Below, one piece after another: positions 7,920 through 30,511 of a stretch of 64,000 bases of DNA. The stretch is from Phoronis australis. Taxonomy: Eukaryota > Animalia > Phoronida. The position numbers and the translations under genes are program-made. The stretch covers positions 364,466 to 428,465 of the forward strand of contig NMRA01000191.1 of the NCBI GenBank assembly GCA_002633005.1, read 5' to 3'. The first letter of the stretch is position 1. Each line of letters begins with the position of its first letter. The notes under the pieces were generated by a model. The model was not told the DNA's origin. It did no database searches and saw only the letters and a list, made by a program, of their open reading frames with translations.

Positions 7920-8540
7920 CTTGTGTTACGACCCTGATAATTTCGTAAAACGAAAGTCTCGAATAAACAAAACAACAATAAAATACCTAGATTAATTAAT
8001 TCAATTCAAAACACATTTTATTTTACGATTTCTCTTTCACCGGAAGTGTCATAAGTATCCTTGGTTTCTAACCCCAATATTTTTTAAAAATATTAATCTA
8101 ATTAACAACAAATGAAAAACTCTTCCAAAAATACCAATATAAAATAAATAAGCATAACTGAACAAAGTACAGAAATAATTGTAAAATTTAAAATATTATT
8201 TGGTAACGAGGTATTTCCAGCGACCTCTAGTGTAGCACTGAGCGCAAGACAAACACTCTTGTGAAAGAAAGGTTATAGGCCTATATCAAAGAGTCTTTGC
8301 TTTGTTAGACAGGGTAATTACAAGTGTTTACTCAGTAAATACAAAAAGCTCACACCCTATTGACCGAACGTGGATATGCGATACACTGACGTATTATATC
8401 CAGTTCAGATAGTTTCAAAAGTGGTGTCAGACACACTTGCTTCGCAATTTACTAGCAGATCACTTCACCTGTCACAGACACAGTTCAACACCCTGAGTTA
8501 TATCTGTCAACATGTCTCAGCTCTGGCTTCTTACTTTCAG
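7920..8540. promoter_or_regulatory. Putative bidirectional promoter / non-coding first exons of C10orf53 (-) and NFU1 (+)
   Basis: Both ATG-containing exons begin at splice acceptors (4740 minus; 8541 plus). Candidate donors lie at ~7919 (minus AAG|GTAGGT) and ~8313 (plus AGG|GTAATT). ETS/GABP motif CCGGAAGTG at 8040-8048. Confidence 0.5.
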
Positions 8541-8552
8541 ATCAGCAACGCA

Positions 8553-11500
8553 ATGGCTTTGAAGTTTTGTTACCGATGTGCAGCACTGGCACGGATTATG
8601 TCGTCAGAGTGTATGTCCATGAGGTAATTGGCTGTTCTCTGACTACTAAATTTGTTAATATAAAATTCGCAAATTTAGTTATGAGAATTATTGAGTTTTG
8701 TTATTGCTTGAAACTGCTGTGTGTGAACTTAAAATTTTGTTTCATCTCAAGATCGTGTGTGTGTGAACTTGGAATACACGAGGAAACTTGACAAGTTCAC
8801 TCTGACAACTAATCACATTCACGTTGACAAAAATTTGCAATAATTGACTAATGCTTCCAGCTTATTGGTTGACAAAGACATTTTACTTAGATTGTTATCC
8901 AAAAATAATTGAACATGTTGCTTTGTCCTCCCTTATTCACTGATCGGAAATGTGTGTAAAAGAAAAGTTTAAAACTTAGTTGTGGAGAAAAGGAAAAATG
9001 GAAGTTGTGTGTTCGTCTTTCATTTTATCCATGAAAACAAAAAATCAATAATTGATTATAAATTTTGATTTTTCGGAGAAACTGAAAAACAAAAAAGTCA
9101 AATTATCGGAAAATGGTTGTATTTTCTATCTTAACAATTGTATTTTAAACCAAAAATCCTTTCATACACGGACCATATTGCTATGTATTGCAAGCGGAGC
9201 AAGTAATCACACTTCCTTAGCAAGATTCTTGCATCAGCGAAACTCTCCTGTGGTCTCTAGCTAGTTACAAAGTCACTTCTGCACTGAATAATAACTAACG
9301 GCACATGTTGAGACTAGTGTATTTGTTACTTTGTAGAAGGCATATTTCCAGAACCTTCAGTATACTGGGATATTAGTTTACTTGAATAAATTTCCCTTTT
9401 AGGCTTGTAAAAGGCCGTAGAGCTTGGTCAGCTGTTCGGAATTTCTCATCAATATCGGCCACGCTGAAGCCAAGCAATGTACTAAAGACACAAAGAGCTG
9501 CCTCAGCACCACAACGTAAGTGAATTAGCTGTCTTCTAAATTTAAAATGTTAACAGATGAAGTTATCAGGTTAAATTACAGTAATCACAAATTCATAGTA
9601 GCAAAGAATTGACTTATTCCATGTTTAATGGGAGTGCCATCTATGGTTGAGCCACGAGTTGATGGACTGGACCATTGTCATTAAATTAGAGGTGTGATTT
9701 CTTTCTATCTCATGTATTGCAATTCCGTTGATGAAATTTCAACATTTTTATTGGATAAAGCGATTTTACTTGAGACCCCTACACTAACATATTTTTGAAC
9801 ATTCTGGGGGTGAGATGGCTTATGGATTACTGGCTACTCATGCAGATAATCAAATTCATTTGGCTCTCGTTTCTATCGGAGATAGAATCTCAAACTAAAA
9901 CGCAAAACTAGCTTATTTTGGACTAAACTGTTTTAGACTTTTAGACTGTAATTATTGGTCTTTGGGGAATTTTATCTCATTTACTATATCGTCTACATCT
10001 TTCTTGTTTACCTCTAAACTCCATAAGGTGTGACCATGGTTCTTTTGTTGGCCATATAATTGTTTGACTTGAAAGGTCTAGCGAAATTCATTCAAGACGC
10101 TTTGCAGGTTAGAAGTAATTGTTTGTTTATTAACTAGTCTGAAGTGGACATATTTGACTTGTTTGTTTATTAACTAGTCTGAAGTGGACATATTTGACCT
10201 TATGCAATATGTCATGTAATGATTTAATTATTATTAGGTGACTGAGTAAGCCCATTGAGTCTGGAGGGTGTGGTGAATATTCTGTCTTTGATATTGTATT
10301 TACTGGCACCCTTATGTCACTATAATAAATAAATATAAAAAAATAAATCAAAATCATGGTATCTTGGCACTTTACTGTACGGACTCCCATCATGAGCAAA
10401 CAAAGTTCGTAAATGTAAAGGACATTGTTTGGTGTTTTATCCTGGAATCCAAAGTTAATTGTTTTCGGAAAATTGTGTCTTAATTTTTACTCTTCTGGGG
10501 TGGATATTTGACTTATATTATTTCCTTTTGCAATTCCATTTCTGGGTGAAGCAAACTTCACATTGCTGTACAGTAACGTTTCTCAGTAAAACTTTACCAA
10601 GTAAAAAGAGGAAAGGGGATATACTACTTCACAATTTAAAGGAAAGGCCATACGAAATTTGTTTGTGCCAAATGTGCACAGGTACTTTGTCAAATGTGAA
10701 AATGTGAACATTCCATAGTTATATTGTTTCATAATGTTCACAACAGTTAAATTCAAGAAACACTTTAATATCTTCCAAGTTTCAACCTGTGTAATATTTT
10801 CTTCCCCTCAGATCGAACCATGTTTATCCAGACCCAAGATACACCCAATCCCAACAGTCTCAAGTTCTTCCCAGGGACACAAGTGTTGGAGTCTGGCACC
10901 AGGGACTTCCCATCTGCTCAGACAGCTTACGGTTCTCCGCTGGCAAGGTATGGTAGGGTACTAGATAAGTACACCATCATTTTTAAAAGTGAAAAACAAT
11001 TGTCAGCAAGCTTTTAAATACTGTTTAATTTTTTTTGTTGGTTTCCAATTATATTTGCCCTTTCTGGTTTCATTTGTGCCCAGTTGCATGAAACAGTCCC
11101 GCATGGGGACTCTGCTGAGGACCCTAAATTTATTTTGTATTTATGGGCTTGTGAAAATGCTGATTGTCCTTTCGTGTGCTACTTTAGTTTCATTGCTATG
11201 TCAATTTTTGGCTTTGATACAAATCAAGTGTGAACTCTACATTGAATTTTCAATATTGAAAATAAATTGGGATCTTTTCATGCAACGCTCCTAATTAAAG
11301 AACTAAGACTCTATTTATTTTCACTCAACACAGGACTCTGCTCTTAGTTTTATTATTGGAAAATGTCATTAGTTAACGAGGAGCTCATAATTAAGCTGAA
11401 ATAATAGTAACAGGTTACATCTGTGAGTAAAGAAAGACACAAATATTCGGTAGATTTAGGGAACTTGGTTGAGCCTCTATTTAAAACTGTTTCATGCAAC

Positions 11501-14500
11501 CTGGCACTGGAACCTGTTTCATGAGACCAGTAATCTTTAGTGTAAAGTAACAACTTGTACTGTTGCCATGACATCAACAGCTTTGTTCAACAATTATAAC
11601 ATGACATTTGTTGTGATGGTGCTGTTATTTGGGGAACCTGGAATATGTTTACACGTAAAAAATAAATATCCAGCATTGACTTATTGATTGTCTGAACATT
11701 TATGTGATGTGGGAGATAGATATTGATGACAAAATAGGAACTGAATTTTTTTAGGTAGAAACACTTCCTTAAAGTTTAAATGCCCACAGGTCATTATTTT
11801 GTCTATTGAAAATTGTGACCTGTTCAGTTCTAGCATCAGCTCCTAAAAGGTGTATTGTGAAATCAAGTATTTGAACACTTTCTTTTCTTCAGACTTTTGT
11901 TCCGAGTTGAAGGAGTAAAGGGCGTGTTCTTTGGTCAAGATTTCATCACAGTTTCGAAAGTAAGTTAGATAGGCACTCAGGATCTTAAATTTGCTCTCAA
12001 AATTGAGCTCAAAATTATAAATTATGAGATTTTTCATTCTATTTTAGTATGAACTCAAGTTAAGTGTATTTTTGTGTTTGCTCAAGTATATCATGGTTTA
12101 AGTGGTTGAGTGTGTAATCCTAGTCTATTTGTGATGACGCCACCATTAAAGCTACATGTTCGATTCAAAATCTTGAGTTTTTCCTCGAGTTTGTAGCTCA
12201 GATGTTGGGGGCCATCAAGTTTGAACTGAGACTAAATTATCACTTGTAAAAACCATAATGTAATCGAGCATACAAAAATAGACACTTTTCTTGAGCTCAT
12301 ACCAACCAAGAAGGGAAAAGGATGCAAAGAATTTTGAGTTTAACATGGAGTACAGAGATAAAATCATGAGTCTTGGTCTTTTATGGTAAATGCTCTTCAA
12401 TTTAGTGCATAGTATGGCGGATAAGTGTTGACTTTAGCAGCTAAAATGAACATTAAAATGTCAACTATTTAATTGTTTTAAAAGACATTGCTGTTTTATT
12501 GATTAGGTGTTCTTGAGCTGTCTGATTTGTTTGGTGTGCAGTTGGTTTCTGTGTAAACCTGCAGCCGAAAGTTTTTTTTTCTTGAATTCTATAATTTTTT
12601 TGGAATGTTCCCAGATAGAAGATGCTGAGTGGAAAGTAGTGAAGCCACAGATTTTTGCCACAATAATGGATTTCTTCGCCAGTAACCTCCCTGTGATCAC
12701 AGATGAACAGCCCCCCTCTGATACAGGTGAAATAATGTGTGCAGTGTTAGTCATTGATGTTCATAAGCTAACACTTTTCTTGTATTTGTGATATGAATGA
12801 CCATCACTGACTCAGGTAATGTGTATGCATAAAGTACATAGCTCTATAGAGTCATACATGGTCACATTGTGATCCTGGGATCGAGTCTTGGTTTAGGCAG
12901 AAATCTTTTAGGACTCGTAGTTGTTCAGTCTGGTGATGTAACCACGTGTTACTCTATAGAGGTATCTACTTTATGCATTCTTCACGTGTACTGTGATGCA
13001 TATAGAGCATCACATTTACATAAAAGGGTAAGAGTCACTTACAGAGGTCCCAAATTTTGAGAACCAGTCTTCTCCACAGAATAACAGGCTACAAACTAGT
13101 TCTCAAAGTCTGGGACCCTCTGCATGCCTTTAAAAGTATAAAAACTCAGGTGATTAAGCAAGATCTATGTGGGAAGGCTTCTGTTACATTGGAGGCAAAA
13201 CCTAGTTCTTACAGGGTGCTTGAAAACACTTCATTACATGTCCAAAGAGCATCATTTTTGTGAATAATTTAAACTACATTGGTTTGTGTTCAAATTTCTT
13301 TTGTGAAGTCTTCAACTGAAAAGTAGGGGACCGGTAATGATATTTTTAAAGAAACCACAATGAACATTATGTAAAGCAACTCTAATGAACAGCATGTCTA
13401 CCCAGAACTCTCTCTTGTGGCGCTTGGTCATTTCTTAAGTTTATGTAGAACCTTATCGACAAAACTATGAACTGTAACTCTGTAAAAGTGCTTATTTTCT
13501 GAAGATAGGTAGAAGATAGATTGATTGGGTTATGTGACCATGTCTTTTTAGTGAAAGTTAGAAAAAAAAGGAAAGGTATATTCGTAACGAAACAACAGCA
13601 TCAGTAATATCCCAAATTTCATTTGATGTGAATCCTCAAGATTAAATCTCAAAAATGCTTTCCCAATTTTCTAAATATGATTTGTTCTTTAATGTAACTT
13701 CTGAGTTTTTTCTTAAAAATCATTTCAGTCCTATTTTTGATAACCCCTCTTACAAAAGTGAATCAATTTAAAAAGAAATCCTAACGGCATTTTTGAGAAC
13801 ATTGCATTAAGCATAGTAACGTATCTAAGAGTTTCACTTGAATTTGATCAGCCATTTCTAAGATTTGATTGGATGGATATTTTTCAAGGGTCCTACATAA
13901 CTTTAAGGTGGCGATGAAACGGTCAAAAGTGTGTACAGTGGCTTGTTGATAGGTCACGTAGTCGGTATGCAGGCATTCATTCTCAGTGTTTGTTGCAGCG
14001 CCACATGAAGATGATGATGAAACAGTGGCCATGATCAAAGAGTTGTTAGACACGAGGATACGACCCACAGTACAGGAGGATGGAGGGGATATTGTCTACA
14101 TGGTGTGTAGTCGGATAATGTATGATTAGCCTCTGTGGCCAGTGGCGTGAAACGATCCTAATAGGGACTCCTCTATGTTTCGTAAACTTTCAGTGGATTT
14201 GTGGACTTTGTGTAAACACTGTTTTTGTTTCTTTTGCTATTTTATCTTCTTCATTCAGGTTCTAGCATGGATACATGTTGAGACTAAACTACACTTTTAA
14301 TTATTAGTATTATTGATGATAAATAATGACTAAGTCCTTAAGTTTGGGGGTGTTGCAAGAAAATGTTCCTTTTTGTTTCCCATGGGTGGAGGGCTCGGGT
14401 TTTCCGGTATATCATCAGAAAAAGTCATAAGGAATAGGGGAGCTCATACTGAAGATAAGGGGATAGAAAAAGTAACATTAATTATTAAAAGAACTCCGCG

Positions 14501-15984: not shown

Positions 15985-18243
15985 ATTATTCTTATTGGAG
16001 ATACAGTTTATGTGATAAGGCTTATAAGTGATGCTATTTCGATAAGTAACATTTTAAGATTGCTGGTAAGGCATACGAAATACTGCCAATTTGTTGCCAT
16101 TTGCATGTTGACCACGGTGGATTGCATTTTTCGGATATTGTGTTCAGTGGCTATGCATGACTAACACAGTGTTAACAAGAATTATAGTTCTTCCAATACA
16201 TCGTCTTAAAAACTGATTGTCTTAATCACAAAGCAATACACACAGTCCTTGATGTTCACAGAAACCTATGGTGTGCATGTTTTACCGGATTCCGAGATTA
16301 TTATAACTTCCAAACTTTGCACAAGTATGACTTCCAGTTCTGTAAACAATGCCTGTGTTTAAGTATGTAGACCTTTTAAACAAACTTGGCTATTATCATT
16401 GAAAATGAAGGGTATTATATGTTGAAAGTTGATGTTTTGAAAAAATGTGACCCTTTGTAATACCGTAAAGAGTTTACAGCTACCTTATGTTTTTGAAGAA
16501 TCCTCTTATTTTTAGCATAGATGCCATGTTAATGTTTCTGAGTCACAGTATATTGTGTTGTTAGAACTAAGTGCCAGTGCACACAGGTAGGTACGTGCTG
16601 ATCTGTCTGCCTCAAGTGAATTATGGCTGAGGTGATGGCTCACGCTAAGGCTAGAACAATTGAATCAACTAGCACTTAGTTCAACCAATTGTATTTTCTC
16701 ACCTTGGTGTGAACTATCAGCTCAGCTATGATTTGCTTGATACAGATTGATGAGCTCGCAGGTATCCATCTACAGTGGCTCTAAGCACCCATTTATTTGT
16801 GATGTATTGTATTTGTTTCCATTTATGGGGTTTTTCGTACAGGCATAAATAAAATAAATTACCAATTTAACAAACCTTGAGTAATATATTATGGCAACAA
16901 TGGAAATCTCATGAACATAGTCAACAGTGAAAAAGCTACATAGAGCGCTGCTTCAGCATGTCAAAAAGGCCAACTGCAAAGTAAGGCATTGATACAAGAG
17001 TTAACACCCGTCCTCTCCATTCCATTCACAGTATGACAAAGGGGAAAAGAGAAATGTTAGATTGTCTTATTGTGATGCACCAAAATATTTACTCAAAACA
17101 ATAGACACTTGCAAGTGAGGAAAGTTGGATGTGTGAAGGTAATAGTCTTATTACCAAAGCAGTGCTCAATATAGCTTTCATGATAACAGGATATTTATTA
17201 ATCATAAAAAATCAGGTACACTATCAATTCGGTTTAACAACTATAAACTTATCATTTGCACAGATTGGTCACTTCATACCAACGGCAAACGAAACTCGAC
17301 TAAGCTGTACCATCTATTAGATATCAATTAGTTCAACAATGTCATCTACATAGCTGTCATATGGTAGAAAATCTAGTGTAAGTAGTACTAATGCATCAAT
17401 ATGGTCTCCCTAACTGTTGTTTAATTAATGAAAGAGCCTTATTTTGCTCCAACTAATGACTAGATGAGCACTGGACTAAATAAATGGAAGGTAAATGCTT
17501 ATTCTTTCGCCCTAGAATTTCTTGACAACATTTCACTGGAAACCCTCCAGTGGTATGAAAATGCTATTGATACGAGGAAACGCAGGGTCTGCACAGGGAT
17601 ACAATTTTTAACACTACGTTATCATCTGCCAAGATATTATTGATTATGTTTCAGTGTCAGTCGGTGTACTCGGCACATACAAAACTGTTGAGTACAGATA
17701 TGCTCGGTAAATGAGATTCCCAAATCTTAAAGAGAAAGTCACCGACACTGGAACATTACAATACTACTGGGACGGTAAAAAGTTTAAAAAGTTGCTCTAC
17801 AAATTTCTAAGTCTAACACTAAATAAATGCTAATAAGTTTATGGCAGCTTTACCGAATGGTGTTTTATCAGGCTGGTGCTGAACTGAAAACAAAATTTTC
17901 TAATTGTAACACTAAAGCAATGACATGTTTGTTGTCGACAAGATTTTGAATACAAGACATCTCAAAAAGGGTGTTGACGAGGAGCAACTCATCTTAATTT
18001 GCACATGATTTAACTTGTAGAAACTTTGATAGCTAAGAAATGACTAGTCCATTTTATTCCACACAGATGAAACATTGGAGTTTTTGATAGACATATTAAC
18101 CAAATACATCAGTAGAAAATTAACGCTGCATAAAAAATTGTAAATATCAATAGAGAATATCATGGCCACATGATCTTGGATAGTCAGCTGTATAGGATGA
18201 TGGTCACAAACATAGCACCTATTCATGAACTTTTGACCCCAGG

Positions 18244-21200
18244 TCAAAGTTCACTGTGTTCACCCAAAGCTTTCTTCACTTTTGTAGAGAGTTCATGCTC
18301 TAGTTTTTTGACCTAAAATGAAAGTTATAGGTTTCTACGAATGCTTTAAAATAAACCTTAAGACAATAATTTAACATGCAACAATGCAAAGTCATAACTA
18401 GAAATTAAATTCTTAGCAAAAAGCAATGGCAAGGACAACACACGTGAAAAAGCAAACTTTGGCTGGCAGTACAAATGGCTTCGAGAGCTGATACACAACT
18501 TAGGTATTTCATTATTAATATTTTGACAGCTTATTGACAAAAATACTATACAAATAATTGTGCATATCATTTACCTCACCTTTGATTTTCAAATCAGTTA
18601 ATGTGGTACAAAGAAAATTTCATGGCGTATCGTTACCTGACATACCTTATAAGCATAATCATCAGCCTTATATTGCCACTTCTGAGGGCCTTCAAACGAA
18701 TCATCCTTCACTTTTCCAACATGTTTCGCCTTCTTAGCCGATATTTCAGCCTGTTCCTTCATATACCGATGCTTCTGAATTTTGCGCTCAAAATGCTTCA
18801 ACTCTTCCTGAAAATAATAGACATGATTTCGTTGATGAATATTCAACAACACCTTATTTGGTGATCAGTGTTTGCATGAAAGACTATCAATGACTTCAAC
18901 ACAGTCAGTGAAATGAAATTGTCTACAAAATCATTCAATAATTCATCAATTTCGTAAAACATCAGCTGAAAAAGAACAATTATGTCTGATGCATAAAATC
19001 AAGACATAACATGATGCACATCTCCATTCAAATTTCACTGCATTCTTTGGGGTTATTAAGATTCATTCTGAGAACTGATCTCTTGTGTGGTGGTGTACAC
19101 AAGTCAAGTCACCCCATTGTGTTGCTCAGGCAGGTTATGCAATAGATATTGGGACATATCAACAAAGGAACAGCAGTAGCAATATGGGCTATTTCTTTAT
19201 TCAGAATCTTCAGTTGCAGTTAACCAGTTTTTGTAGTTCAAACAATGAAAAAGTTCTATTTTCAGAGGCGGATCCAAGGGGGGGGATTTGGGATATTCAG
19301 GGGGCTTAAACCTCCCTGGGACAGGATAAAAAACAAAAAAACATTGCCAGGAAAACAAAATAAGCTACAAAAACCAAAAAATCTTACACGGACGGGGAAA
19401 CACCCCCCCCAACCTCCCCCCGCTCGGCACTATGCACCTCGGATTCGTGCGAATTCTAAACTCCCCTTACTGAAAACGTAGATCTGCCACTGCATTTTCA
19501 ATGACAGATTTAGAAAGTTCACAGTGTTTCACTCTGGTAGTACTAGTACTGCTGGGTGTAAACCCTTAAATGCCACATTTTACCAAGAGAAGCTGCAACA
19601 TACGTGCCCAAAGGCAATATGCACAAACAGAACTAGGTCCGTGGGAATAAGATTTGTGTATTGCGCTGAATCTAATGACATAATCGAGCTGGTTTAATAG
19701 GAGGCATAACTTTGCACTCTGAAATAGCGTGACATTTGCGACATACTTTTTGAATTCATGGAGAAGAATCACCTCACACTTGTGACTTTTTGATTTTGGA
19801 GGCATTTAGCATGATTTCATACATGTAAAAAAGCTGCGCCGGAGTGCCTGTTAATTTTATTTCTACTATTTTTTCTTGAGGTTTTCTTACATTACACAAT
19901 ATCTAGAAATTAGTATGAAAACATGTTTTGACGGTTCAAAATTTCCAGCGGCCTTCGATGACAGTTTTCTTAACTTAATAGGCATTGACCTCCCAGGCAC
20001 CAACATAACCAATAAAGCAATTGACTCTAATCAGTGAAGAAGACCCAATCACTGCTCAGAGGACATGGAATTTCTCTAAAACCCAGCTCACCTTAAATGA
20101 CAGGAGCTCCTTCTCTGTAAAGTTTGCCTTGAGAGCTTGCGACCACATTTCAAATACTCTGGGTTCAGTGAACTCCGAGTCACTTGTGTGGGATGTTTTC
20201 CTCTCAAGTCGTTCGTAGCCCTCTTTGATTTCTTTCTTCAAGGCATGGAAATCTGTCCGTTTTTCCTTTTTCAATTTCCCAGAGTCGTCTTCCTTGAAGC
20301 GATCCAATGAATTTTCCATGTCACCTAAAGCAAGAACACAAATGCCTTATGCAGTAACAGGGATTTCCAATAAACCAAGCACCAATAGGTACTTTCTGGT
20401 GATGGGTGCTATATCAGAAACTTCTGGTAGTTAAATAAATGAATATTCAGTATTAAATTGACGCTTCAACATTCACATTAAGATAAAGTATTAGTCTCCT
20501 TTGCTTGGACATCACACCAGATCGCATGATCCTGATTTGTAAAATAACCAATGCTTTCATGAATTCTCCTGATCATGAACACCTATCTATGTTTGTAATG
20601 ACATCAGCATTACAATCAGCAACTCAAAGTGAGCAGATGAAGCAAAGATATCAGAAGATGTCCACAATATTGAAACATAATGGTGGTCCAAACCTCATTA
20701 GACAGGAAAGGGTTTGTGGTGTTTATGATAGAATGTGGCAGGTTGCCTGTTCAGCAGAATTTTTGAGGAATGAAGTTATGAAAAGCGATCAGGGCATGAC
20801 CAGGTTCATGCAACCCTGCCCAGGAGACTACGTTAAACTGATAACTGCATTGTCATGACAAAACCAGGTTTGAATGAATCACGAATTTGCACCTTCATTT
20901 CAATACCCGTATGGCATTTTCAAATTTATACTACCAACTTTTCCCAAAACAAACAATTGCCGGATGAAAAACAAATAAAAATAAAAAATCAAAGCAAGCA
21001 CTTCTGCTAATTTTGAAATGACTCAACTTTCCTTTGTCTTTAGTCTTCTTCAGGGTTTTTGGCATAATTTCAATGAAGATCAAAATATTCCAACAAAACA
21101 TTTTTTAAACTACTGCAGTTATACCCAAGCAAAAGATCTCCACCCAAAATTAAATTGGATGTGAAGTTACTACAAAAGTTATACAAAAACAACCACATGT

Positions 21201-24200
21201 ACTATCACTGTCATGTTTATTATTAAATTTTATTTTCTTAATCCAATTTCGCAATAAAAGTAACTACAAAGTAATCTCTAACCCTAAACTATACCATACA
21301 CACCCTCTTTGTTGTTATTGTCTTCATCTTTCAGCTGTTCATATTCATCAATTTTCATTTGATGGTGTTCAAACTCCCGTCTTAGGTCATCCAGCTCTGA
21401 ATCTAATACGAAAACAAAAGAAATTATTTCCAAGTTTTCATGAAGACAGTTTTCTAATGCTACCTTTCTTTCACTTCAGACGTATTCTGTAAAAATGGGA
21501 CCCGTTCCAACAAAACTGACTTAGCTAAGACAAATCTTAAATTTTAGTAAGTTTTAAAATAAAATTAAATTTGTCTCAAAACCAAATCAAGAAAGAGATC
21601 TTAAGTTTGACTTAAGTGTATGAGCCAAGTTTTGTCTTAATTTTGAGTAACTTTCCAAATGTGGAAGTTTCAAAGTTTGGAAGTTAAGACAAATCTTAGA
21701 CTTAAGTAAAAAATGAACTTAAGTCAGTTTCTTGGAACAGGCCCATGATCTATAAAAATGTTTGCTATTCATAACAACATACATGGCCTCTTCTGAAATA
21801 GACGAGAGAGAAATAAATTTATTTCAGTGACCAGTGTTACTTGAACACTCAGCCCACTTATTAGTCACTTTAACAAAATACAAGAACAGCAATGCACATA
21901 CAATTTAATATGAAGCTCAAAATTATTTAAGAAATTAAGTGAACAGTACTTTTTTATCTGGCCAGATCATTACATAAAACAGCAAGTTTTGTCTTCAGAA
22001 CCGAACAGGTCGAAATCTGGGAGAATAAATGTGATTTTATCAAATAACTAAATTCTTAAATCTTCGTAAAAAGGGAAATGACAAAGGAAATGATTTTCAT
22101 CCTCAACATCGTGCAAATCAGAAGGAAACAAAGTCTGTTACAGAGATCAATGTTAGAAAATCCACCAGGTTTTGAAACAAACAGTAACTTAGAAAGCAGT
22201 GAAAGGTCTTTATCTCATAAAAGTTTCTACGTCAATTTCCCAAACTCAGTAGGAAAATCCTCAGCTAAACGGCTTTAGTTCACAACAAAGATATTTACCT
22301 GAGAATCCTGACTGTACAGCACTCTTCCACATTTTCTTCAGTCGAGAATCCAAAAACACATCTTTTTGAAAGTCGTGCTCTACTGAGTTCCTTGTATCAT
22401 CGTGTTTCGGATCAATCAGACGATATTTTATCATTATGTCTGAAAATATGACACACTGACGTGTATAATAGGACCAAATTTGAATACAGACACTGGGCCT
22501 AAATGAACACATGTGTGGTAGGGTACTGAAAAATGGGCCCACTATCCATTTTATGACTTGTAACTAGATGACGACAAAATTGTAATGGATTGCATTCTAT
22601 GCTGTGGTATGGGAGTAACGGAGTGAGATTTCATGTTACTCGTAAATTCTTTGCAACCACTTTGCCATCAAATAACCAATGTTGTACGGTGGGAGAGTCC
22701 AACTTCAGAAAACATACATGCTTCCTGAGCCCTTCACGTGACTTCTTATCTTCCGGTCTGTTGGTAAAAAAATTTTAATCCCGTATTCATTCACCTACAA
22801 GCACAATTCTGCGTGTCACATTAACCCATTTCACAGCTGCTTGTTTTTCATCAATATGAGCCGCTAGTGAAATGAAGCTTGTTTATCAGCAACGCTCATC
22901 TAAGGTCCTTAAAGCAGGGCAATTATCAGATTAGTGATTCTTTCAGGGCCGGTTAAAAATAAAATGGTTTACTGCGGAGAAAAACTGGTGATTTACCGCA
23001 CTGTCTGTCTTCTGGAGAAAACTTAGGTTAGTAACATTCTTATGATAAAAAACCAATATAGATGTATTAGGCTTTGCTTGGTATCAGTAACAATGTTTGA
23101 AACATGGTAGATAATTGGGTTTCGAGTCATGACGCAAGACCATAACGTGTTTTGGTCGTGACAGACCGGCCCGAAAATCCTCCCCTCATTTTCGGGTCGG
23201 TCAAAATTCTTGAGTAAACCACATGCCTTTATTAGGCCGGTAACATGCAATTTCACGCTAATACACATTAGCTGATGGAGTAAGATAAGAGTTGCCCAAC
23301 GAAACACAACGACTGTTTTCACTTTTTCACTCTCCTGATGGATTTAAACCAATAGAAGATTCAAAATCTTCATAATTTTGACCTCAGTGCGTGCTTTCTC
23401 CATAAATATTGGTGAAGTTTTAGCTGAGGTCGCTTCGGTCAGATCACCCGAGTTTGAAGTAACTTTTAATACTATTTCGCGGTAAAGCGGATTCATTTGT
23501 TTCGAATTTTATATCCGTTAAGAATTTAATTTACACTTATAATTTCAAAGAAAATAAACAGAAATTAGCGTGGAATGTCAGTAAATCTGAGTTAAAATTC
23601 CTGACAAAGTAACAAATTTCACAAATTTATGATTCCGCAACAGTCTAATTTGCGCAGTTCCATAGTATTCTGAGTAATCCGTTCTCGTCTGTGTCGTGAC
23701 CACATGTGTGAGCTGTAAAGTTTCTTCATTTTTTGCCATTTCAAAATGAGAGCAACGAGTAACCATGTTCAAGCACATACATTTTCGTCGTAAAGCGAAA
23801 ATCACAATAAAAAGCAGATAAAAAACGATGCTAATTTCAAGAGTTAACTATTTTTGTTGGAAGTCATGGCGAAAATCTGGAAGGAAGATGGACGAAAATG
23901 ACACTAAAATTGTTGAAAATTTACCGAAAGTTTTTGCATCAAAATTCCATCTATTTTGCGCAAGGATTATCTCGAACTTTTTTAGACCACCACATTACGA
24001 TCAATGCTAAACAGTGGTTCGACCGCGACATAGTTATTTGGTGGTTATACCATCCACAAACACGCATGTGTTACAAGTTCTATATCCATGTTCGTTAAAA
24101 ACGAATTGTAGAAAGAGTATATCGGAGCAATTGAATGTAATAAACAACGGATATGTTATAATGCGACTTGATTATGTTTTTCCTGAATCTTCTAATAGCG

Positions 24201-27200
24201 GAGTTGCAACCGAATCGATTTAACGATAGTGCATGTCCGGAAATTAGGGTGTGCAAAGGCTATCGGGGATTGATTAGGGTATGTGGAAAGGCCAATTGGT
24301 TTGCACGACGTGTGATTTGTGTGCATTAAACTACGCAGCTGTATGTAAGTCTGCCGCTATTCGCCCTAATAAGTGCCCATGCCCCAATAAGTGCCCAAAC
24401 ACGTTTTCAGACTTCGCTAAAGTAAGCGCCCAGCCCATGAACTACATGCGAAAAATGCCTTACCTACAGTTCTAACGTCTCCAATTTTTCAATTGAAAGA
24501 TCCGACAGTCCTGAATTTGTAGACCACAAGCCTCACCACTATGTCCAGATACACTTCAAACTTATGCCGCGATTCAATAAAAATGCAAAAGTTTTGCTAC
24601 TCTTGTGAGGGACGTGCCCCACTACGCGGGTCTGGACTTTGAAAACAGACGCAGCGTACTTGTCAGCAGGGTTGCATTATTTCTTTCCGGTACAGATTTT
24701 CTCCGGCCTCAACAGGAATCCAAACTTCTTTGTACACGTGAAAACCGTGAATCGAAGACTAATAAAAAACTCGACCAGTGTTAGCACGCGGCCAAGAAGC
24801 GCGCTGCATAATGTACCGGCTGTCATCGAAGACATTTAGTCGGGAACTATCTATTCATGAAACGGGTAACATAGCATCGGCAAGAAATAAATATAAGCAC
24901 TAATTTCCGAATGTTTCTAATACCGTAAAAAACTTTTGCATTATTTTTAAGAGAAATTATTTAGGTAATCATAATTGGTGTTTTTTTAAAGTCAAAATGA
25001 CCCACTAATAGTGAACACATTCGCACCCTTACACGGCCCCGAATCTTCCGGAAAATAGCTGTACACTACGGTCACGCATCCACTCACCCGGCGACTCAAT
25101 GAGTGACATATTGGTCTTACCGAAACAATTCTCGAACGTTTTTTAGCAGAGTGAGGCCAGCAAGTGCTAAATATTAAAACACGCCCTGCTTGACTGCTTG
25201 AGTTAATTTCTTTGGATACAATGCACACCTAGATCATTACATTACTCTGGCAAATGAACTCTGATGACAAGCATACGCACGCTTACTCTCACATACACGC
25301 ATACAAACTTCAAAACAAACGTCATGAGACAACAAGTGTGTTCCTCCAGAGATTTTTCTCGTGTTGCGGCCAACAATCTAGCGCAGATTTGGATTTAATC
25401 TGCAATTAATCCAGACTCCACAAGAACTTAAAAATCTTAGAGACGCTATTTGGAAAACTTGAGGAGGATTTCAGGTAATTTTTTGAGTCGAAGCTGTATT
25501 CTTATTCACGAATTCAAGCCCTATCGACGATTGCGAGATCGGCAGCTAGGCATTTGTCGGCGAGATTTTGCCCTGGGATTTCAGCACAATTTTCTGAAAA
25601 ATGATCTTAATTTAACAACGAATTTTGATAGCAATGCACCACAATTTTGTAGAAAGTAAATAATAATATTCTGCACGCTTTAGCTTAGCGCATTATGTGC
25701 GTACGTTAAGTGAGTTGACCCAGAACAGGTGCTTGTGCAGAGGCATTATCCTCAAAATTGCTTATGTTGGCTTGGTTCTGGTCAAGCGGAAACAGGTTTT
25801 TTTTTCTACCATCCGCCGTGGAGTATTTGTTACTGTTTCTTTCAAGGGAAATATTGTTGGGCAGTTTCCAAGATACGTTTTCTTGCCGCACTCAAAATTA
25901 GCGCTGCATACTTTAAGTCGGAAAGAATTCCTAAGTCGGCCTTTGCTACCAGCTCTACTGATGTGTCTGACCCATGTTTAACACAGTTCTTGATCCTTGG
26001 GAAACAGGTAGTAACTAAATTCTTTATCTCACTAACTGGTATTGTAGCATGCCAGACACACAACACGTATAACCTCCCTGTGGCCGGTTTGCCCCCACGC
26101 TTGCTGACGTACTTGTTTACCGGCTTAACCACAAAGCAACATTCTGACCTATTTCCAATATGGCGGCGTTGCAACTCCACTATTCTGTAGATATTGGGTT
26201 AACTAAAGAGACTTGTCGAAAAAGTGCTGTTCTGTATAAACTAATGTCACATGGTGTTCCTGAATTGTAAATTTGGGCACCGAAAAGTTTCATAGATGAA
26301 TGTTGTGTTGACGTTCAAGGCATCTCACCATTCACTTAAAAGTAGTTCCATTGTCAGACCAGGTGTAATTATCATGTTTATTGCCCCCACAGCCGAGTGA
26401 GTAGTGAATTATTGAAATCACTGATAAAAGCGTGTCAAGTTCATAATCCCTACAATTCCTGCTATAACCCATGAGATTCTATCACGATCATTTCGCAGTA
26501 TGCAGACGGATGCAGGAACGCTTAACAATAGCCAAGAATGATATCTTAATTAGCCTTGGTTTAGTTAGAAACAGCTGTCGACTGGAGTTTGAAACCAAAC
26601 CAAAAGTTTTTGTAACATATAGACAACAAACAAACCATGCAAGTTTTGCCTGACTTCAGCCTCCTTTTCCCCATCTGGATCTCCATCTTTCAGCTTGGTC
26701 TTTTTAAGATTCATTTCATCGTCGTCTTGAATTTTCAAATCATCATAAATCTCCATAAGTTTCTTTTCCTTAAGCCTCTGGAAAAAGCATTAAGACAACA
26801 TAGAGTCTGGTAGATCAACTTGCAAAGACTCCTATTGCCATATTAGGCTGAGCAGGCAGAGGCAGAGCACAGGTACGGGTTTGGTGCTAATCTAGCCAGC
26901 CAGCTAGCTGTATGAATTTGAAAACTATCGTTAAAATACCACTGTGTGTTTTTCTTCCATAGACCCTGAAATTGCACACAGCCAGGGTAGCTAAAGACCA
27001 GACGGGGTGCATGCACAATCTGGGAATCAACCGACACTCACCTTGCCCGTTACAACCGTTTAAGAGAAAAACAATGCAACAAATGTCATTTGCTTGCATC
27101 ATTGACCTTTTGTAACAAAGTAAAGTATGTTGTCATTGTGAAAACAGTACGCTCGTGCCATGCACACGCGTCATTTCCTAAATTTTTGCGACAACTTCGC

Positions 27201-28125
27201 AGCAGCAAAATTTGTTCTGAAATTCGTTTTTCGGTATTCTAAAAACTTATAATGAAGTGAAACCAGTTCCGATAATTTGTTGTGCCATGTACGCAACCTC
27301 ATGAAAGAACAAGTTGATAGAAGAATTGGCTAAAAAAGAAACTGGCCAATAGGTGACGCAATATTTCATGGTGCCGAAAGCCGACGCAGAAGATAGCTAA
27401 CCAACTTTAGCAGCAGAATAATGGTAGACCGCCATTTTTTCCAACACCGTTAAATAATTCAGTTTACTCAAGGAAGACTGTAGTTTTTAATGACACTAAT
27501 TTTGTGTCAGATTTTATCTTGCCACTTTTTACTCACAACGGTACAAAGCTGTATATTTAGTATACATCTTTGTACTGATTTTACGTGGGTAAAATATATT
27601 TAGTATACAGCTTTGTACCGATGTGGGTAAAGTATATGTAGTATACAGCTTTGTACCGATGTGGGTAAAATATATTTAGTATACAGCTTACAATGTACCG
27701 ATGTGGGTAAAATATATTTAGAAATTTTAGTATACAGCTTTGTACCAAGGCTAGTGCTAATTCAGCACCAACCGATATGAGATTTTCAGTAAAGTGAGTC
27801 TTAAAGTAAACTTGACATTCAACACTAAAAACAAGACTATAGCACAAAAACGTGTAAAACTGAATTGCAAGACTAATCATATGCCTTTGCAGAAAGCCAC
27901 CGAGTGGAACACCAGGGGGCGTGTCCACGCATGATGTGATTTTAATACCTTCCTTGCTTTTTGCCAAACTTGGTTGACTTTGTTGGCACGAAATGGGTTA
28001 TCCAGTTTGCTCCTATCATCTGGACCTAGGTTTTTAGTTTTTGAATACTTGCTAGCACTAAGATAACATGTCAAAATACACAAGATTATAAGCGACTTCA
28101 ACAACAATCCAACGGCAGCCGCCAT
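18244..28125 (-). CDS. LRPAP1: Alpha-2-macroglobulin receptor-associated protein (RAP), 340 aa; exons 27949-28125, 26636-26777, 22299-22439, 21304-21402, 20092-20324, 18646-18807, 18244-18312
   Basis: Signal peptide; NPFRANKVNQVWQKA; LKIQDDDEMNLKK...D.DGEKEA; D.RL.KMW..A..SGFS..EL..L.REF.HH..KI.EY; F.EPRV.EMW..A..ANFTEKEL.SFKEELKHFE.KI.KH; C-terminal ER-retention signal HSEL. Phases consistent. Confidence 0.93.
19263..19492. mobile_element. Short hAT-like MITE in an LRPAP1 intron
   Basis: TIRs CAGAGGCGGATC / GATCTGCCACTG; G-rich and C-rich subterminal tracts; TSD not intact. Confidence 0.7.
21497..21744. mobile_element. MITE (PIF/Harbinger-like GGG.CC termini), copy 1
   Basis: TIRs GGGACCCGTTCCAACAAAACTGACTTA / TAAGTCAGTTTCTTGGAACAGGCCC; a second, inverted copy lies at ~62929-63199. 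Confidence 0.8.
24350..24840 (-). pseudogene. Decayed HIRAN-domain ORF, probably carried by a DNA transposon, in LRPAP1 intron 2
   Basis: The minus strand, across a frameshift, reads IHGFHVYKEVWIPVEAGENL...NPADKYAASVFK..TRVVGHVPHKSSKTFAFLLNRG...GLQI. An adjacent terminal-like block GCCCTAATAAGTGCCCATGCCCCAATAAGTGCCC lies at ~24363-24397. Confidence 0.7.
25800..26077 (-). pseudogene. Decayed THAP zinc-finger ORF (transposon remnant) in LRPAP1 intron 2
   Basis: GGYTCCVSG/fs/CYNTS**DKEFSYYLFPKDQELC*TWVRHISR...LKVCSANFECGKKTYLGNCPTIFP shows the THAP pattern C-x-x-x-x-C...FP.D....W...I.R...VCSxHF...PTIF, with stops and a frameshift. Confidence 0.75.
27539..27747. repeat. Minisatellite, ~38-42-bp unit x~5, beginning with an inverted partial unit
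   Basis: Unit TATATTTAGTATACAGCTTTGTACCGATGTGGGTAAAA; the array starts with GGTACAAAGCTGTATA, the reverse complement of TATACAGCTTTGTACC. Confidence 0.9.
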
Positions 28126-28170
28126 AGTTAACTGCTTGCTGTCCAACAGACGTCGCTTTGTGAGGTAAAA

Positions 28171-30511
28171 ATGGCTTCTGAACACGGAAAGGAAAACCTC
28201 ACAGATTTGGGATTTAAGTTGGCACATGAAATGCCTGACGACGGTTTTAAGTATTGCAAGAATTATTGTTCTATTAATGAGGTTATTGGTGCGAAACGGT
28301 TAGAGGAAATAAGCACCTTTATGGAACTGTTTGCCGAGCTGGTCTCTCGTGATGAAGTTTCACCGAAAGACATTTCTTTCCTCAAGAAAATGCTGAGTGC
28401 TGCAACGCCGGGAAAATTCCAGCCATTGTTGAAGAATTATGAGGAAGGAATCTCTACTGCACCTACACAATGTGATGAAAATGAAGATAGCTTACCATTA
28501 GGCAAGTGGTTTGTCTGCAAAATATGCTATTCTGTTGGTTAGGACAGAACGTGTCCTAGGCAACACGTCGTAGCCCCTCGCCTCGGTTGGCCGGTGGCAT
28601 TCAGAGCGATGTATTTGCCTAAACGTGCCCAGGCAATGCTATACTAGTATTCCAGACACTAGAACTACTAGAAGCCTTTTTGGATTTCGCTGTTTAATTA
28701 TCAACTCTTTTATTTATCGTAAAAATTAGAAAAATTTTCAAAGATGTATTTCTGAATGTGTGAGAAATGATGGCCAATTAAAATTTAAATTATATATTCA
28801 TTTATATTGTCAAGACTGAAATTTTTCGAATCTGTTTGTGTCAAAAGTGACACAAGTGGCTGGTAAACAACTGTGGTAAACAATACATTTTCAGGACCTG
28901 GGATGGGTGGAATTTGGCGGTTAATTGTATTGAAGTGCCATGCATTTTCCCTTTTGTGGCTGCCTATTACTCGCTAGTTGGCTACGTGCCTAGCCAGCAC
29001 AACACGCAGGTAAAAGTCAGGTTTCATGCAGTAGCATGCACTTTAGCATTGGTTGATGTAACCTCGGTAGTCATTGGTTAGCATTACAACAACGTGAAAA
29101 AATGGTGGACTATGAACGATTTTTAGCCTTGTCACATGCAAGTGACATAGCAGCAACTATTTCATTTCTGCAGTAATGTTTAATAGATGCGTGCTTGAAG
29201 CACATACATGTACAATAAACACATATCTGGCTGATTTAACCGGTGTGTTATTCATACTGTATGAATACAGGACAGTATTGTCAACAAAAGTCATCGACAG
29301 TAGAAAGATGTACTCTGAAAAGGCGTAACCACAATTTCTTGGATTCACATTTCCTGAACATAAATTTTACTTAAGCACCGATTTGTCTGTACAACAAACC
29401 ACATTTACACTTGCTCCATCAGTCATGTCAGTTTGTTTGTTTAAATGCACTGCCTGTTGAGAATTCGACCAGCCAATCAGAAATGTCGGTGTAAAAAAAT
29501 TTCCCCATGGAAAATTAAGTGATAACTGTGTGCTGGCTACCACCTAGCGCCACGCAGGGAACCAGCGAGCCTGCATTACAGGAAATTTTCGTATTTGCAC
29601 CCATAGTGGTTTTACAGAAATCTGGGGAAATCACGGGTAGCTACAAGACAAAAAACAGAAATGGGTGGCGCTTATGCAAAAAGTTCAATGGGAAGCCCTG
29701 GTCAACTGCTTGTATTGGTCTTGGATGAGCAAGTTTATGAACAAAATAAAGGGACACCACAAAACTTGGCAATGTATATCTTGTAACATGCGGGAACTGG
29801 GGGAGTGAAGTATGTCCATGGTACAGAAGTACCTGTAACTGTACATTAGGCCAGTATTTTTTCTTTTGAGCGGGTGAATTTTTGGAATCTGGTGTGCGTT
29901 GACCTAGGAAGAACAGTGTTCTAGAACAACTTTGCGACATCAGTTTATCATGTGGTAATTCCTGTTTTTGAAGTTTTCAACAGTGGCAAGTTAGCTCTCA
30001 AATTTTTACACGTCATGTTGACATTCTTGGGATTGTTGCTGTCATTTCTGTTTGAGTTTGAATTTGACATTCATAATGGTGCTACGCATGTGTCTAAGCT
30101 TGTGAGTGTTTTAGAAAACTTGTGAAAAGATGTTAGATTTATGAGAAAAAAACACCATGCATTTTGTAGTATAGTCATAAATTACTAAGTGTAGTAAATG
30201 AAGTTAATAATTAATTGAAAGTTTATATGCTCTTTATTTTTTCAGATTTAGTGAAAGCATTTGATTATCTGGGAGAAAATTTGGGCAGGGACTGGAGACG
30301 GGTACTTCGGCGACTTGGGCTTAAGGAAAGTCAGTTTGACAAAATAACGGCTAAACATCCCTTTGACTTGGAATCGCAAATTCGTTGTGGACTGGAACTG
30401 TGGGCTTCAAAAAGGAAGGACAGTGACCTGTTTCAACTGGTGGTAAATGCGCTAAGAGAGTGCCAGCTCAATTTATATGCTAATGAGTTGGAGAAATCAA
30501 GATCTTTTTGA
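28171..30511 (+). CDS. FADD: FADD-like adaptor (DED + death domain), ~198 aa; exons 28171-28501 and 30246-30511
   Basis: Exon 1 is DED-like (IGAKRLEEISTFMELFAELVSRDEVSPKDISFLKKML). Exon 2 is a death domain (DLVKAFDYLGENLGRDWRRVLRRLGLKESQFDKI..KHP.DL..Q....L..W...LV.ALR.CQLNL.A). Two-exon, phase-1 structure as recalled for vertebrate FADD; donor probably GC. Confidence 0.82.

What the first reader, a model, noticed from the sequence alone, without database searches (positions are those of the whole stretch)
27300..29640. LRPAP1 and FADD start codons lie head-to-head only 45 nt apart
Seen: the LRPAP1 ATG (28125, minus) and the FADD ATG (28171, plus) are separated only by 28126-28170. There is no room for two ordinary 5'UTRs plus a promoter, so the mRNAs must have very short leaders or overlap, each starting inside the other's first coding exon or intron. 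Promoter-type motifs cluster in both first introns: CCAAT boxes, TGACGCAA and CCGCCATTTT at ~27325-27440; CAGCCAATCAGA at ~29470 and reverse CCAAT boxes at ~29048 and ~29073. Inference: interlocked promoters giving natural sense-antisense coupling or transcriptional interference between an ER chaperone of LDL-receptor-family proteins and a death-receptor/immune adaptor.
Basis: partly seen in the sequence, partly recalled or inferred. Interest (0 to 1): 0.75.

Follow-up and report, generated by a model that had tools for sequence, protein, structure and literature searches.

The report
Tiny two-way promoter: FADD and LRPAP1
In this animal the genes for a cell-death adaptor (FADD) and an ER chaperone (LRPAP1) start back to back only 45 bases apart, and their RNA reads end inside that gap instead of running into the partner gene, so both likely fire from one tiny two-way promoter with very short leaders, an extreme case of a well-known arrangement.

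Summary
The 45-nt ATG-to-ATG gap is real, and both genes are genuine, spliced and expressed. LRPAP1 reads reach no further than 28144, FADD reads start no earlier than 28143, neither strand has any depth in the partner's coding exon, and no read carries an upstream exon or spliced leader. The leaders are therefore very short and the starts likely lie inside the spacer. Interlocked intronic promoters are not supported: CCAAT boxes occur at chance frequency there, and most cited motifs appear to sit in dispersed repeats. A relative's RNA contig suggests the same arrangement (about 37 nt) with possible slight 5' overlap. The gap is shorter than every positive coding-start distance among the 103 tightest of 384 human head-to-head pairs (smallest 54), but the kind is known. 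This scan noted similar pairs on other DNA (yeast, foraminifer, skate). YY1/TISU-like start contexts and mutually exclusive firing are plausible, untested. RNA-seq does not map start sites.

The parts
28126..28170 (.). 45-nt spacer between the two start codons; likely holds both start-site clusters and both 5' leaders
   Evidence: depth of both strands falls to zero inside it; no ATG, CCAAT or GC box; no TATA or GGAA core by direct reading
27949..28125 (-). LRPAP1 coding part of exon 1 (59 codons, hydrophobic signal-peptide-like N-terminus)
   Evidence: Pfam Alpha-2-MRAP_N; joint 26777/27949 in 32, 23 and 8 reads; hydropathy 2.0-2.8 over windows starting at residues 3-13
28126..28144 (-). LRPAP1 5' leader as far as reads reach (19 nt at most seen; most reads end nearer the ATG)
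   Evidence: bins; base-read totals 83/81/20 in 28121-28142 and 2/0/0 in 28143-28164
28118..28129 (-). LRPAP1 start context, TISU-like: 9 of 12 matches, 3' half ATGGCGGC perfect, 5' AAS not met
   Evidence: ATGGCGGC at 3 of 2580 ATGs in the window
28143..28170 (+). FADD 5' leader, outer bound (28 nt at most seen; most reads inferred to start about 28160-28180)
   Evidence: base-read totals 0/0/24 in 28143-28164 and 47/0/431 in 28165-28186
28167..28175 (+). FADD start context matching the YY1 core VAAVATGGC 9 of 9 (TISU 8 of 12)
   Evidence: motif from PMC6292497 supplement row; 12 matches among 2580 ATGs
28171..28501 (+). FADD coding exon 1 (death effector domain)
28502..30245 (+).
   Evidence: loose ends at 28501 continue into exon 2 in 12, 3 and 22 reads; ends GC..AG; both-strand depth and loose ends at 29190 and 29569
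30246..30511 (+). FADD coding exon 2 (death domain); protein 198 aa
26778..27948 (-). LRPAP1 intron 1; holds the 27325-27440 motif cluster in a repeat-like stretch and a 38-nt tandem array at 27542-27749
18288..26777 (-). LRPAP1 coding exons 2-7 (26636-26777, 22299-22439, 21304-21402, 20092-20324, 18646-18807, last coding exon starting at 18312; its end here is approximate)
   Evidence: six CT..AC joints in all three raw-read runs

Best explanation
LRPAP1 and FADD are a head-to-head pair whose RNA reads end inside the 45-nt gap between their start codons, so both are likely transcribed from one ultra-compact two-way core promoter into mRNAs with leaders of roughly 5-25 nt. Shown: both genes, both ATGs, splicing, strand-separated coverage with no reach into the partner's coding exon. 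Inferred: the true starts lie in the spacer, about 10-30 bp apart, so each gene's -30 region falls on the other's leader or start codon (geometry, for assumed start positions). Mechanism I commit to, about 35-40% on its own: the two outward-facing start-codon elements are YY1/TISU-like. Each would set initiation in the ~30 bp behind it and let ribosomes start next to the cap, so that the spacer needs no upstream activator sites. The two pre-initiation complexes would be too close to sit together and would fire alternately. The intron motifs are likely passengers of dispersed repeats, at most distal enhancers 0.8-1.3 kb upstream.
For: (22-nt bins; X3/X4/X5). LRPAP1 strand: 11.3/25.6/4.7 at 28099-28120, 3.8/3.7/0.9 at 28121-28142, 0.09/0/0 at 28143-28164, 0 after. 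FADD strand: 0 up to 28142, 0/0/1.09 at 28143-28164, 2.1/0/19.6 at 28165-28186, 10.7/2/28.6 next. Strandedness is checked by the six LRPAP1 joints, all on one mate direction. Rule-of-three upper bounds for transcripts reaching the partner CDS: 3-5% for LRPAP1, 6-12% for FADD. No 5' loose ends. The FADD upstream ATG is needed: human FADD residue 31 aligns to residue 39 (weak, E 0.3), so the next in-frame Met (21) would cut the DED start. The relative's contig keeps coding identity upstream of Met21 (4 of 7 residues, two synonymous changes, read by eye). The relative's LRPAP1 contig matches 27949-28150 without gaps and its last 25 letters hold an ATG-GCC 12 nt further on. Literature passages: TISU genes have a 12-nt median leader and TISU is a YY1 element (PMC2518114, PMC3177215); YY1 motifs are orientation-specific with initiation in a ~30-bp window upstream (PMC11160661); the amphioxus YY1 DNA-binding domain is listed as identical to human (PMC6292497 supplement).
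Against: RNA-seq is not start-site specific and loses 5'-terminal bases (recalled), so leaders are lower bounds and a small overlap inside the spacer is not excluded. No single place had 5 or more molecule ends (table 6 empty). Only 3 runs of one study, 18-19% of each read, library selection unspecified: unstable or tissue-specific longer RNAs could be missed. Neither context is a full TISU: LRPAP1 lacks the 5' AAS (9 of 12; 1.8% of window ATGs score as well), FADD scores 8 of 12 (7.8% do). An A-rich -4..-1 context is also the ordinary invertebrate start consensus (recalled). In the relative the presumed FADD context matches the YY1 core only 7 of 9 (by eye). The relative's contig runs 13 nt into the presumed FADD coding sequence, which implies some 5' overlap there. 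No binding, reporter or start-site data.
Confidence: 0.7

Rival explanations
1. Same anatomy, no special mechanism: an ordinary housekeeping two-way promoter squeezed by local compaction. The start contexts are plain strong invertebrate contexts, YY1/TISU plays no role and the two genes are not functionally coupled.
For: Imperfect TISU matches. YY1 core apparently not kept in the relative (by eye). 25% of neighbouring amphioxus genes are in bidirectional promoters, mostly housekeeping (PMC6292497 passage). The fly genes taken as FADD and LRPAP1 (ids recalled) are each head-to-head with other partners, 88 and 253 bp. Neither gene is in the human, mouse or rat tables. No known shared pathway (0 papers with all three terms; 13 co-mentions, none on linkage by title or abstract start).
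Against: The locus is not compact otherwise (introns 0.3-4.2 kb). The first 25 nt of the spacer align without gaps to the relative, with at most 5 unlisted differences shared between both contig ends. ATGGCGGC is rare (3 of 2580 ATGs).
Confidence: 0.45
2. One dispersed start cluster spans the whole spacer, and a minority of starts cross over, giving 10-50 nt of 5' sense-antisense overlap.
For: The relative's spliced LRPAP1 contig (664 nt, depth 21.6) extends across the spacer and 13 nt past a probable FADD ATG (X2); as a word-graph contig this needs overlapping RNAs or one long leader. RNA-seq under-reports 5' ends (recalled).
Against: In this species observed reads overlap by 2 nt at most, and in different samples. 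One unstranded contig; its FADD ATG is inferred, with a gap of about 26 nt to the FADD contig; DNA or nascent RNA could contribute.
Confidence: 0.3
3. One reading: interlocked (convergent) promoters in each other's first intron give long overlapping transcripts and sense-antisense coupling.
For: Two full NF-Y boxes in the FADD intron (p 0.037 uncorrected) and a perfect YY1-like site at 27429. Convergent promoters are common in human, median 413 bp (PMC11735407 passage). An in-frame ATG on the LRPAP1 strand exists at 28227. Both-strand reads do occur in the introns.
Against: Zero antisense depth over both first exons and no loose ends leading to intron sequence. CCAAT at chance level. The intronic reads have loose ends (122/78/114 reads at 29569), many fixed differences and a joint linking 29569 to 27332, the pattern of multi-copy repeats transcribed elsewhere (run at 90% likeness, where such joints often come from repeats).
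Confidence: 0.05
4. Leaders come from elsewhere: a non-coding upstream exon or a trans-spliced leader joined at an acceptor-like CAG in the spacer (around 28147-28149 on plus).
For: A pyrimidine-rich stretch ending in CAG precedes 28150 (sequence).
Against: Depth between 28143 and 28164 is at most 1.09 against a plateau near 30-40, and 104 of 104 partly laid reads are explained by the two internal junctions. The tool's minimum loose-end length is not stated, so a few clipped bases could be hidden.
Confidence: 0.04

Closest known systems
Head-to-head (bidirectional) gene pairs of human, mouse and fly (Li et al. 2006, PMC1487180; Yang and Yu 2009, PMC2670823; passages and supplement rows read)
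   Same: Divergent, unrelated housekeeping-type genes with starts far under 1 kb apart, TATA-less spacer. Annotated start gaps of 5-47 bp occur in 17 of the 103 human rows read.
   Different: Human start distance peaks at 101-200 bp and the median coding-start distance is 1,893.5. Smallest positive coding-start distances in the 103 rows read are 54 and 90 (2 rows coded -1, 3 blank); here it is 45, with two tiny leaders and no CpG-island contrast.
Surf-1/Surf-2 YY1-dependent bidirectional promoter (primary papers not held; YY1 role seen only as a citing passage in PMC2670823; very close heterogeneous 5' ends recalled)
   Same: Very short TATA-less shared promoter, dispersed starts, YY1 implicated.
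   Different: Human SURF1/SURF2: 67 bp between gene starts and 140 bp between coding starts, three times the gap here. YY1 use is shown there, only suggested here.
TISU genes (Elfakess and Dikstein 2008, PMC2518114, parts 1 and 3 of 6 read; Elfakess et al. 2011, PMC3177215, passages)
   Same: Start codon within about 5-30 nt of the 5' end, ATGGCGGC core at LRPAP1, YY1-like overlap with the start codon.
   Different: Consensus matched 9 of 12 and 8 of 12; described in mammals; two such elements back to back on one spacer were not found in my searches.
Amphioxus bidirectional promoters with 0, 1 or 2 nucleosomes between starts (Marletaz et al. 2018, PMC6292497; passages, legends, two supplement parts)
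   Same: Invertebrate ubiquitous promoters, often bidirectional, YY1 motif scored; this pair would fall in the zero-nucleosome class.
   Different: I could not extract the distance distribution (the table is sorted by strand), so how extreme 10-30 bp is among invertebrates is open. FADD and LRPAP1 were not named in the supplements searched, one of which was cut when stored.
Convergent promoters (Wiechens et al. 2025 by recall of authors; PMC11735407, passages)
   Different: Requires starts downstream of each other; not seen here.

Membership tests
[quoted passage not shown] | Adjacent genes on opposite strands, divergent, starts within 1 kb | tested here: met
[quoted passage not shown] | Both genes expressed and spliced | tested here: met
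   six LRPAP1 joints; FADD junction loose ends in 12, 3, 22 reads
[quoted passage not shown] | One shared DNA element drives both directions | not testable with these tools
   needs a two-way reporter
[quoted passage not shown] | Correlated expression (tendency, not required) | tested here: inconclusive
   per 1,000 million letters: LRPAP1 junction reads 15.6/14.8/9.0, FADD exon-2 depth 11.3/10.4/23.6, FADD junction 6.5/1.8/13.7; 3 runs, one study
Canonical divergent promoter architecture (two core promoters about 110 bp apart, activators between) | About 110 bp between divergent starts (PMC10979970 passage) | tested here: not met
   read ends confine both starts to a 45-bp interval; RNA-seq, not CAGE
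Canonical divergent promoter architecture (two core promoters about 110 bp apart, activators between) | Central activator sites (CCAAT, GC box, ETS) or CpG-island contrast | tested here: not met
   none in spacer (direct reading); CpG o/e 0.68-0.83 and GC 41% like the flanks. A central GACGTC palindrome is not kept in the relative
TISU element | Consensus SAASATGGCGGC around the start codon | tested here: inconclusive
   LRPAP1 9 of 12 (3' half met, 5' AAS not met); FADD 8 of 12
TISU element | Very short 5' leader (median 12 nt) | tested here: met
   observed at most 19 nt and 28 nt; lower-bound method
TISU element | Accurate cap-proximal initiation without scanning; YY1 binding needed for transcription | not testable with these tools
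   needs reporters, ribosome profiling, ChIP or EMSA
Convergent / 5'-overlapping sense-antisense promoters | Each start lies downstream of the other; overlapping RNAs | tested here: not met
   zero antisense depth over both coding first exons in 3 of 3 raw-read runs; one relative's contig hints at a short overlap
Spliced-leader or upstream-exon 5' ends | Non-colinear sequence at the mRNA 5' end | tested here: not met
   0 of 244 reads with an unexplained loose part
FADD | N-terminal DED plus C-terminal death domain, about 200 aa, closest to FADD | tested here: met
   orthology not tested by a tree
LRPAP1 / RAP | Signal peptide, Alpha-2-MRAP_N and _C domains, C-terminal ER-retention-like tetrapeptide | tested here: met
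   (HSEL; retention function inferred)

The most novel reading that the evidence does not exclude
The 45-bp spacer is a single shared core promoter working as a toggle: each gene's YY1/TISU-like start-codon element sits at about -30 to -38 of the other gene, the two pre-initiation complexes exclude each other, and the locus switches output between the death adaptor FADD and the ER chaperone LRPAP1 (in the 3 runs, the one with about twofold more FADD had about 40% less LRPAP1). It would be a natural minimal exception to the two-separate-core-promoters model, kept in a relative at about 37 bp.
Probability: 0.15. Interest if true: 0.65.

Novelty: new member of a known kind. Interest (0 to 1): 0.35.

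Why it matters
The standard picture of divergent transcription has two separate core promoters and pre-initiation complexes about 110 bp apart (PMC6203779, PMC10979970 passages). A pair of conserved animal genes whose starts, leaders and start codons all fit into about 50 bp is a compact natural test of how small that unit can be, whether the complexes must alternate, and whether TISU/YY1-type cap-proximal initiation works in invertebrates. As a fact about this genome it is modest: tight head-to-head pairs are common, and the FADD-LRPAP1 linkage was not found in human, mouse, rat or fly tables, so it is probably lineage-limited.

Tried and rejected
No whole genome is held, so no genome-wide baseline of ATG-to-ATG gaps and no copy count of the intron repeats. 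The intron stretches have no second copy inside the window; their repeat nature rests on read behaviour. The run search listed no RNA holder on record; evidence comes from laying runs added by species label, whose reads match at 99%+ in 238 of 244 cases. Three homolog searches with single exons found nothing; the representatives search gave 4 weak multi-stretch hits, not used; the Atlas gave no answer; two metagenome scans found no relative. The single-sequence fold of FADD exon 1 was low confidence (mean pLDDT 45; helix predicted at 10-20 with pLDDT under 50) and is not used. Downstream FADD start at Met21 rejected. Extended LRPAP1 start at 28227 rejected: no reads. Central GACGTC as key element rejected: not kept in the relative. 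Amphioxus promoter table could not be paired from 2 parts read. Not held: Core 2014, Duttke 2015, Trinklein 2004, Lennard and Fried 1991, Cole and Gaston 1997, Williams and Fried 1986. Supplements of PMC3514665 (ancient microsynteny lists) could not be read, and the list of 372 ancestral amphioxus pairs was not seen: either could bear on the age of this linkage. PMC1968695 gave only a reference line.
Full report
1. Observation. The LRPAP1 start codon reads CAT at 28123-28125 and the FADD ATG is at 28171-28173; the spacer 28126-28170 is 45 nt and has no ATG on either strand. FADD exon 1 hits Pfam DED (E 2.5e-8, slightly under the curated cut-off) and exon 2 hits Death (E 2e-11); the best solved-structure relatives of exon 2 are FADD chains at E 7.5e-15, nine orders better than RIPK1. 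LRPAP1 exons hit Alpha-2-MRAP_N and _C. With boundaries from RNA joints LRPAP1 is 340 aa ending HSEL and FADD is 198 aa with a GC-AG intron. Earlier scan notes call this genome an invertebrate animal (unchecked).

2. The intron motifs. They are present where stated but not enriched. CCAAT occurs 165 times in the window against 175.5 expected, 2 against 3.0 in LRPAP1 intron 1 and 5 against 4.5 in the FADD intron. Three of 16 motif-by-intron tests reach p 0.036-0.048 uncorrected, among them two full NF-Y boxes in the FADD intron; these motifs were chosen after seeing the sequence. In one search (90% likeness) the bins 26969-27519 and 29173-29723 have reads on both strands (31.5/49.5 and 39.7/30.4 in X3), loose ends at 29569 in 122, 78 and 114 reads and at 29190 in a contig, fixed differences, and a joint from 29569 to 27332 whose 26 inserted letters resemble window 27306-27331 (by eye). 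I read this as dispersed repeats carrying the 27332-27440 and 29470 motifs. The boxes at 29048 and 29073 lie in a bin with weaker both-strand depth, so the case is thinner there. No second copy lies in the window, so copy number is not shown.

3. Where the RNAs begin. Three raw-read RNA runs of one study (X3-X5; 18-19% of each read) gave 89, 66 and 89 reads on 27901-28560, 238 of 244 at 99%+ identity. All six LRPAP1 joints are on one mate direction, so the libraries are stranded. LRPAP1-strand depth falls from 47-53 (X3, X4) through 11.3/25.6/4.7 at 28099-28120 and 3.8/3.7/0.9 at 28121-28142 to 2 base-reads in total at 28143-28164 and zero beyond. FADD-strand depth is zero up to 28142, 24 base-reads at 28143-28164 (X5 only), then 2.1/0/19.6 and 10.7/2/28.6. 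So no LRPAP1 read passes 28144 and no FADD read starts before 28143; from the totals I infer most FADD reads start about 28160-28180. The partly laid reads (48, 28, 28) equal the loose ends at the two splice junctions (36+12, 25+3, 6+22): no upstream exon and no spliced leader. Rule-of-three bounds on transcripts entering the partner's coding exon are 3-5% and 6-12%. Limits: this is not a start-site method, no place had 5 or more ends, 5' bases are typically lost (recalled), and unstable or tissue-specific RNAs could be missed.

4. The FADD start. The 28171 ATG is the first in the RNA, with A at -3 and G at +4. The next in-frame Met is residue 21, but human FADD residue 31 aligns to residue 39 (weak, E 0.3), placing the DED start near residue 9. 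The relative's contig keeps 4 of 7 residues of codons 14-20 with two synonymous changes (read by eye). The fold attempt was uninformative.

5. A relative. Run X2 (organism B, spliced contigs, unstranded) gave two pieces. One matches 27949-28150 with 23 differences and no gaps, then ends in 25 letters holding ATG-GCC 12 nt past 28150. If that is the FADD start, the spacer there is about 37 nt and the arrangement is conserved at roughly 11% divergence. The second piece is FADD and ends at the equivalent of 28210. The first contig running 13 nt into the presumed FADD coding sequence implies some 5' overlap in that species, which speaks against a strict no-overlap reading. It is one contig, and the frame across the ~26-nt gap cannot be checked.

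6. Mechanism. Shown: two short-leader, non-overlapping stable RNAs around a 45-bp spacer lacking CCAAT and GC boxes, TATA and ETS cores (direct reading) and CpG contrast. Inferred: starts 10-30 bp apart, which puts each gene's -30 position on the other's leader or ATG (assumed starts); pre-initiation complexes cover about -45 to +20 (general knowledge), so the two could not co-occupy. The LRPAP1 context matches TISU (SAASATGGCGGC; PMC3177215 passage) at 9 of 12 with a perfect ATGGCGGC, found at 3 of 2580 window ATGs; FADD matches 8 of 12 and the YY1 core VAAVATGGC 9 of 9 (12 of 2580). In human data TISU supports accurate initiation 5-12 nt from the cap and doubles as a YY1 element (PMC2518114), and YY1 motifs direct initiation to a ~30-bp window on their upstream side in one orientation (PMC11160661). 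Two outward-facing elements 45 bp apart would thus share one initiation window. Against: neither match is complete, A-rich contexts are ordinary in invertebrates (recalled), and the relative's FADD context fits the YY1 core at only 7 of 9. I put this mechanism at 35-40% and the anatomy at about 75-80%. Expression is not in lock-step: X5 has about twice the FADD exon-2 depth and about 60% of the LRPAP1 junction reads of X3 and X4 per letters read, but by junction reads X3 exceeds X4 for both genes; three runs prove nothing.

7. Comparison with what is known. Head-to-head pairs are 9.4% of human genes with a start-distance peak of 101-200 bp (PMC1487180), 31.6% of fly genes (PMC2670823) and 25% of amphioxus neighbours (PMC6292497). 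Divergent core promoters are usually separate and about 110 bp apart (PMC6203779; PMC10979970). In Table S5 of PMC1487180 I read 103 of 384 human pairs, those with start distance -998 to +102. The smallest positive coding-start distances are 54 and 90, SURF1/SURF2 is 140, 2 rows are coded -1 and 3 are blank; the 281 unread rows should have larger gaps if the sort continues. Annotated start gaps of 5-47 bp occur in 17 of these rows, so the rare feature is tiny gap plus two tiny leaders. FADD and LRPAP1 are absent from the 11 supplementary files of that paper; the fly genes I recall as their homologues pair with other genes. No paper held all of FADD, LRPAP1 and head-to-head, and 13 co-mentions showed no linkage in title or abstract start; subscription journals are mostly not searched. 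This scan noted similar pairs on other DNA: 30-54 bp in a yeast, 25-55 bp in a foraminifer, 63 bp in a skate (unchecked notes, not support).

8. Verdict. Real, expressed, probably conserved in a relative, and at the short extreme of a known class. New member of a known kind; interest 0.35. The bold reading, a mutually exclusive single core promoter toggling between FADD and LRPAP1, is not excluded (probability 0.15, interest 0.65).

Noticed in passing
window 28502-30245 (+): The single FADD intron is a GC-AG intron; reads join 28501 to 30246.
   Followed up: partly
window about 3530-4736 (-) and 8553-14100 (+): A second divergent pair: a UPF0728 (C10orf53-like) gene on minus and NFU1 on plus (Pfam). 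The UPF0728 ATG near 4736 follows an acceptor-like AG, so its first non-coding exon may lie near the presumed NFU1 start (ATG about 8553, donor-like site near 8470). Not checked with reads.
   Followed up: partly
window 27527-27749: Five degenerate 38-nt tandem units with internal inverted symmetry in LRPAP1 intron 1; reads with loose ends suggest a dispersed family.
   Followed up: partly
window 28225-28227 (-): In-frame upstream ATG on the LRPAP1 strand inside FADD exon 1 (would add 34 residues); no reads cover it on that strand.
   Followed up: yes
window about 530-2240: Near-identical direct duplication with a period of about 1,050 bp and an ambiguous base between copies; possibly an assembly artefact at a gap.
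   Followed up: no
window about 37300-63000 (-): Long ankyrin-repeat gene with polyglutamine exon, ANKHD1/ANKRD17-like (label recalled from the translations; not tested).
   Followed up: no
window about 8215-8235 and 26155-26168: A CTCF-like site upstream of NFU1 and a strong YY1-like site in LRPAP1 intron 2 (consensus recalled).
   Followed up: no
window 16500-17300: Plus-strand reads at 16500-17050 and minus-strand LRPAP1 3' reads from 17051 lie close, so a plus-strand transcript (probably the NFU1 3' end) nearly meets the LRPAP1 3' end.
   Followed up: no
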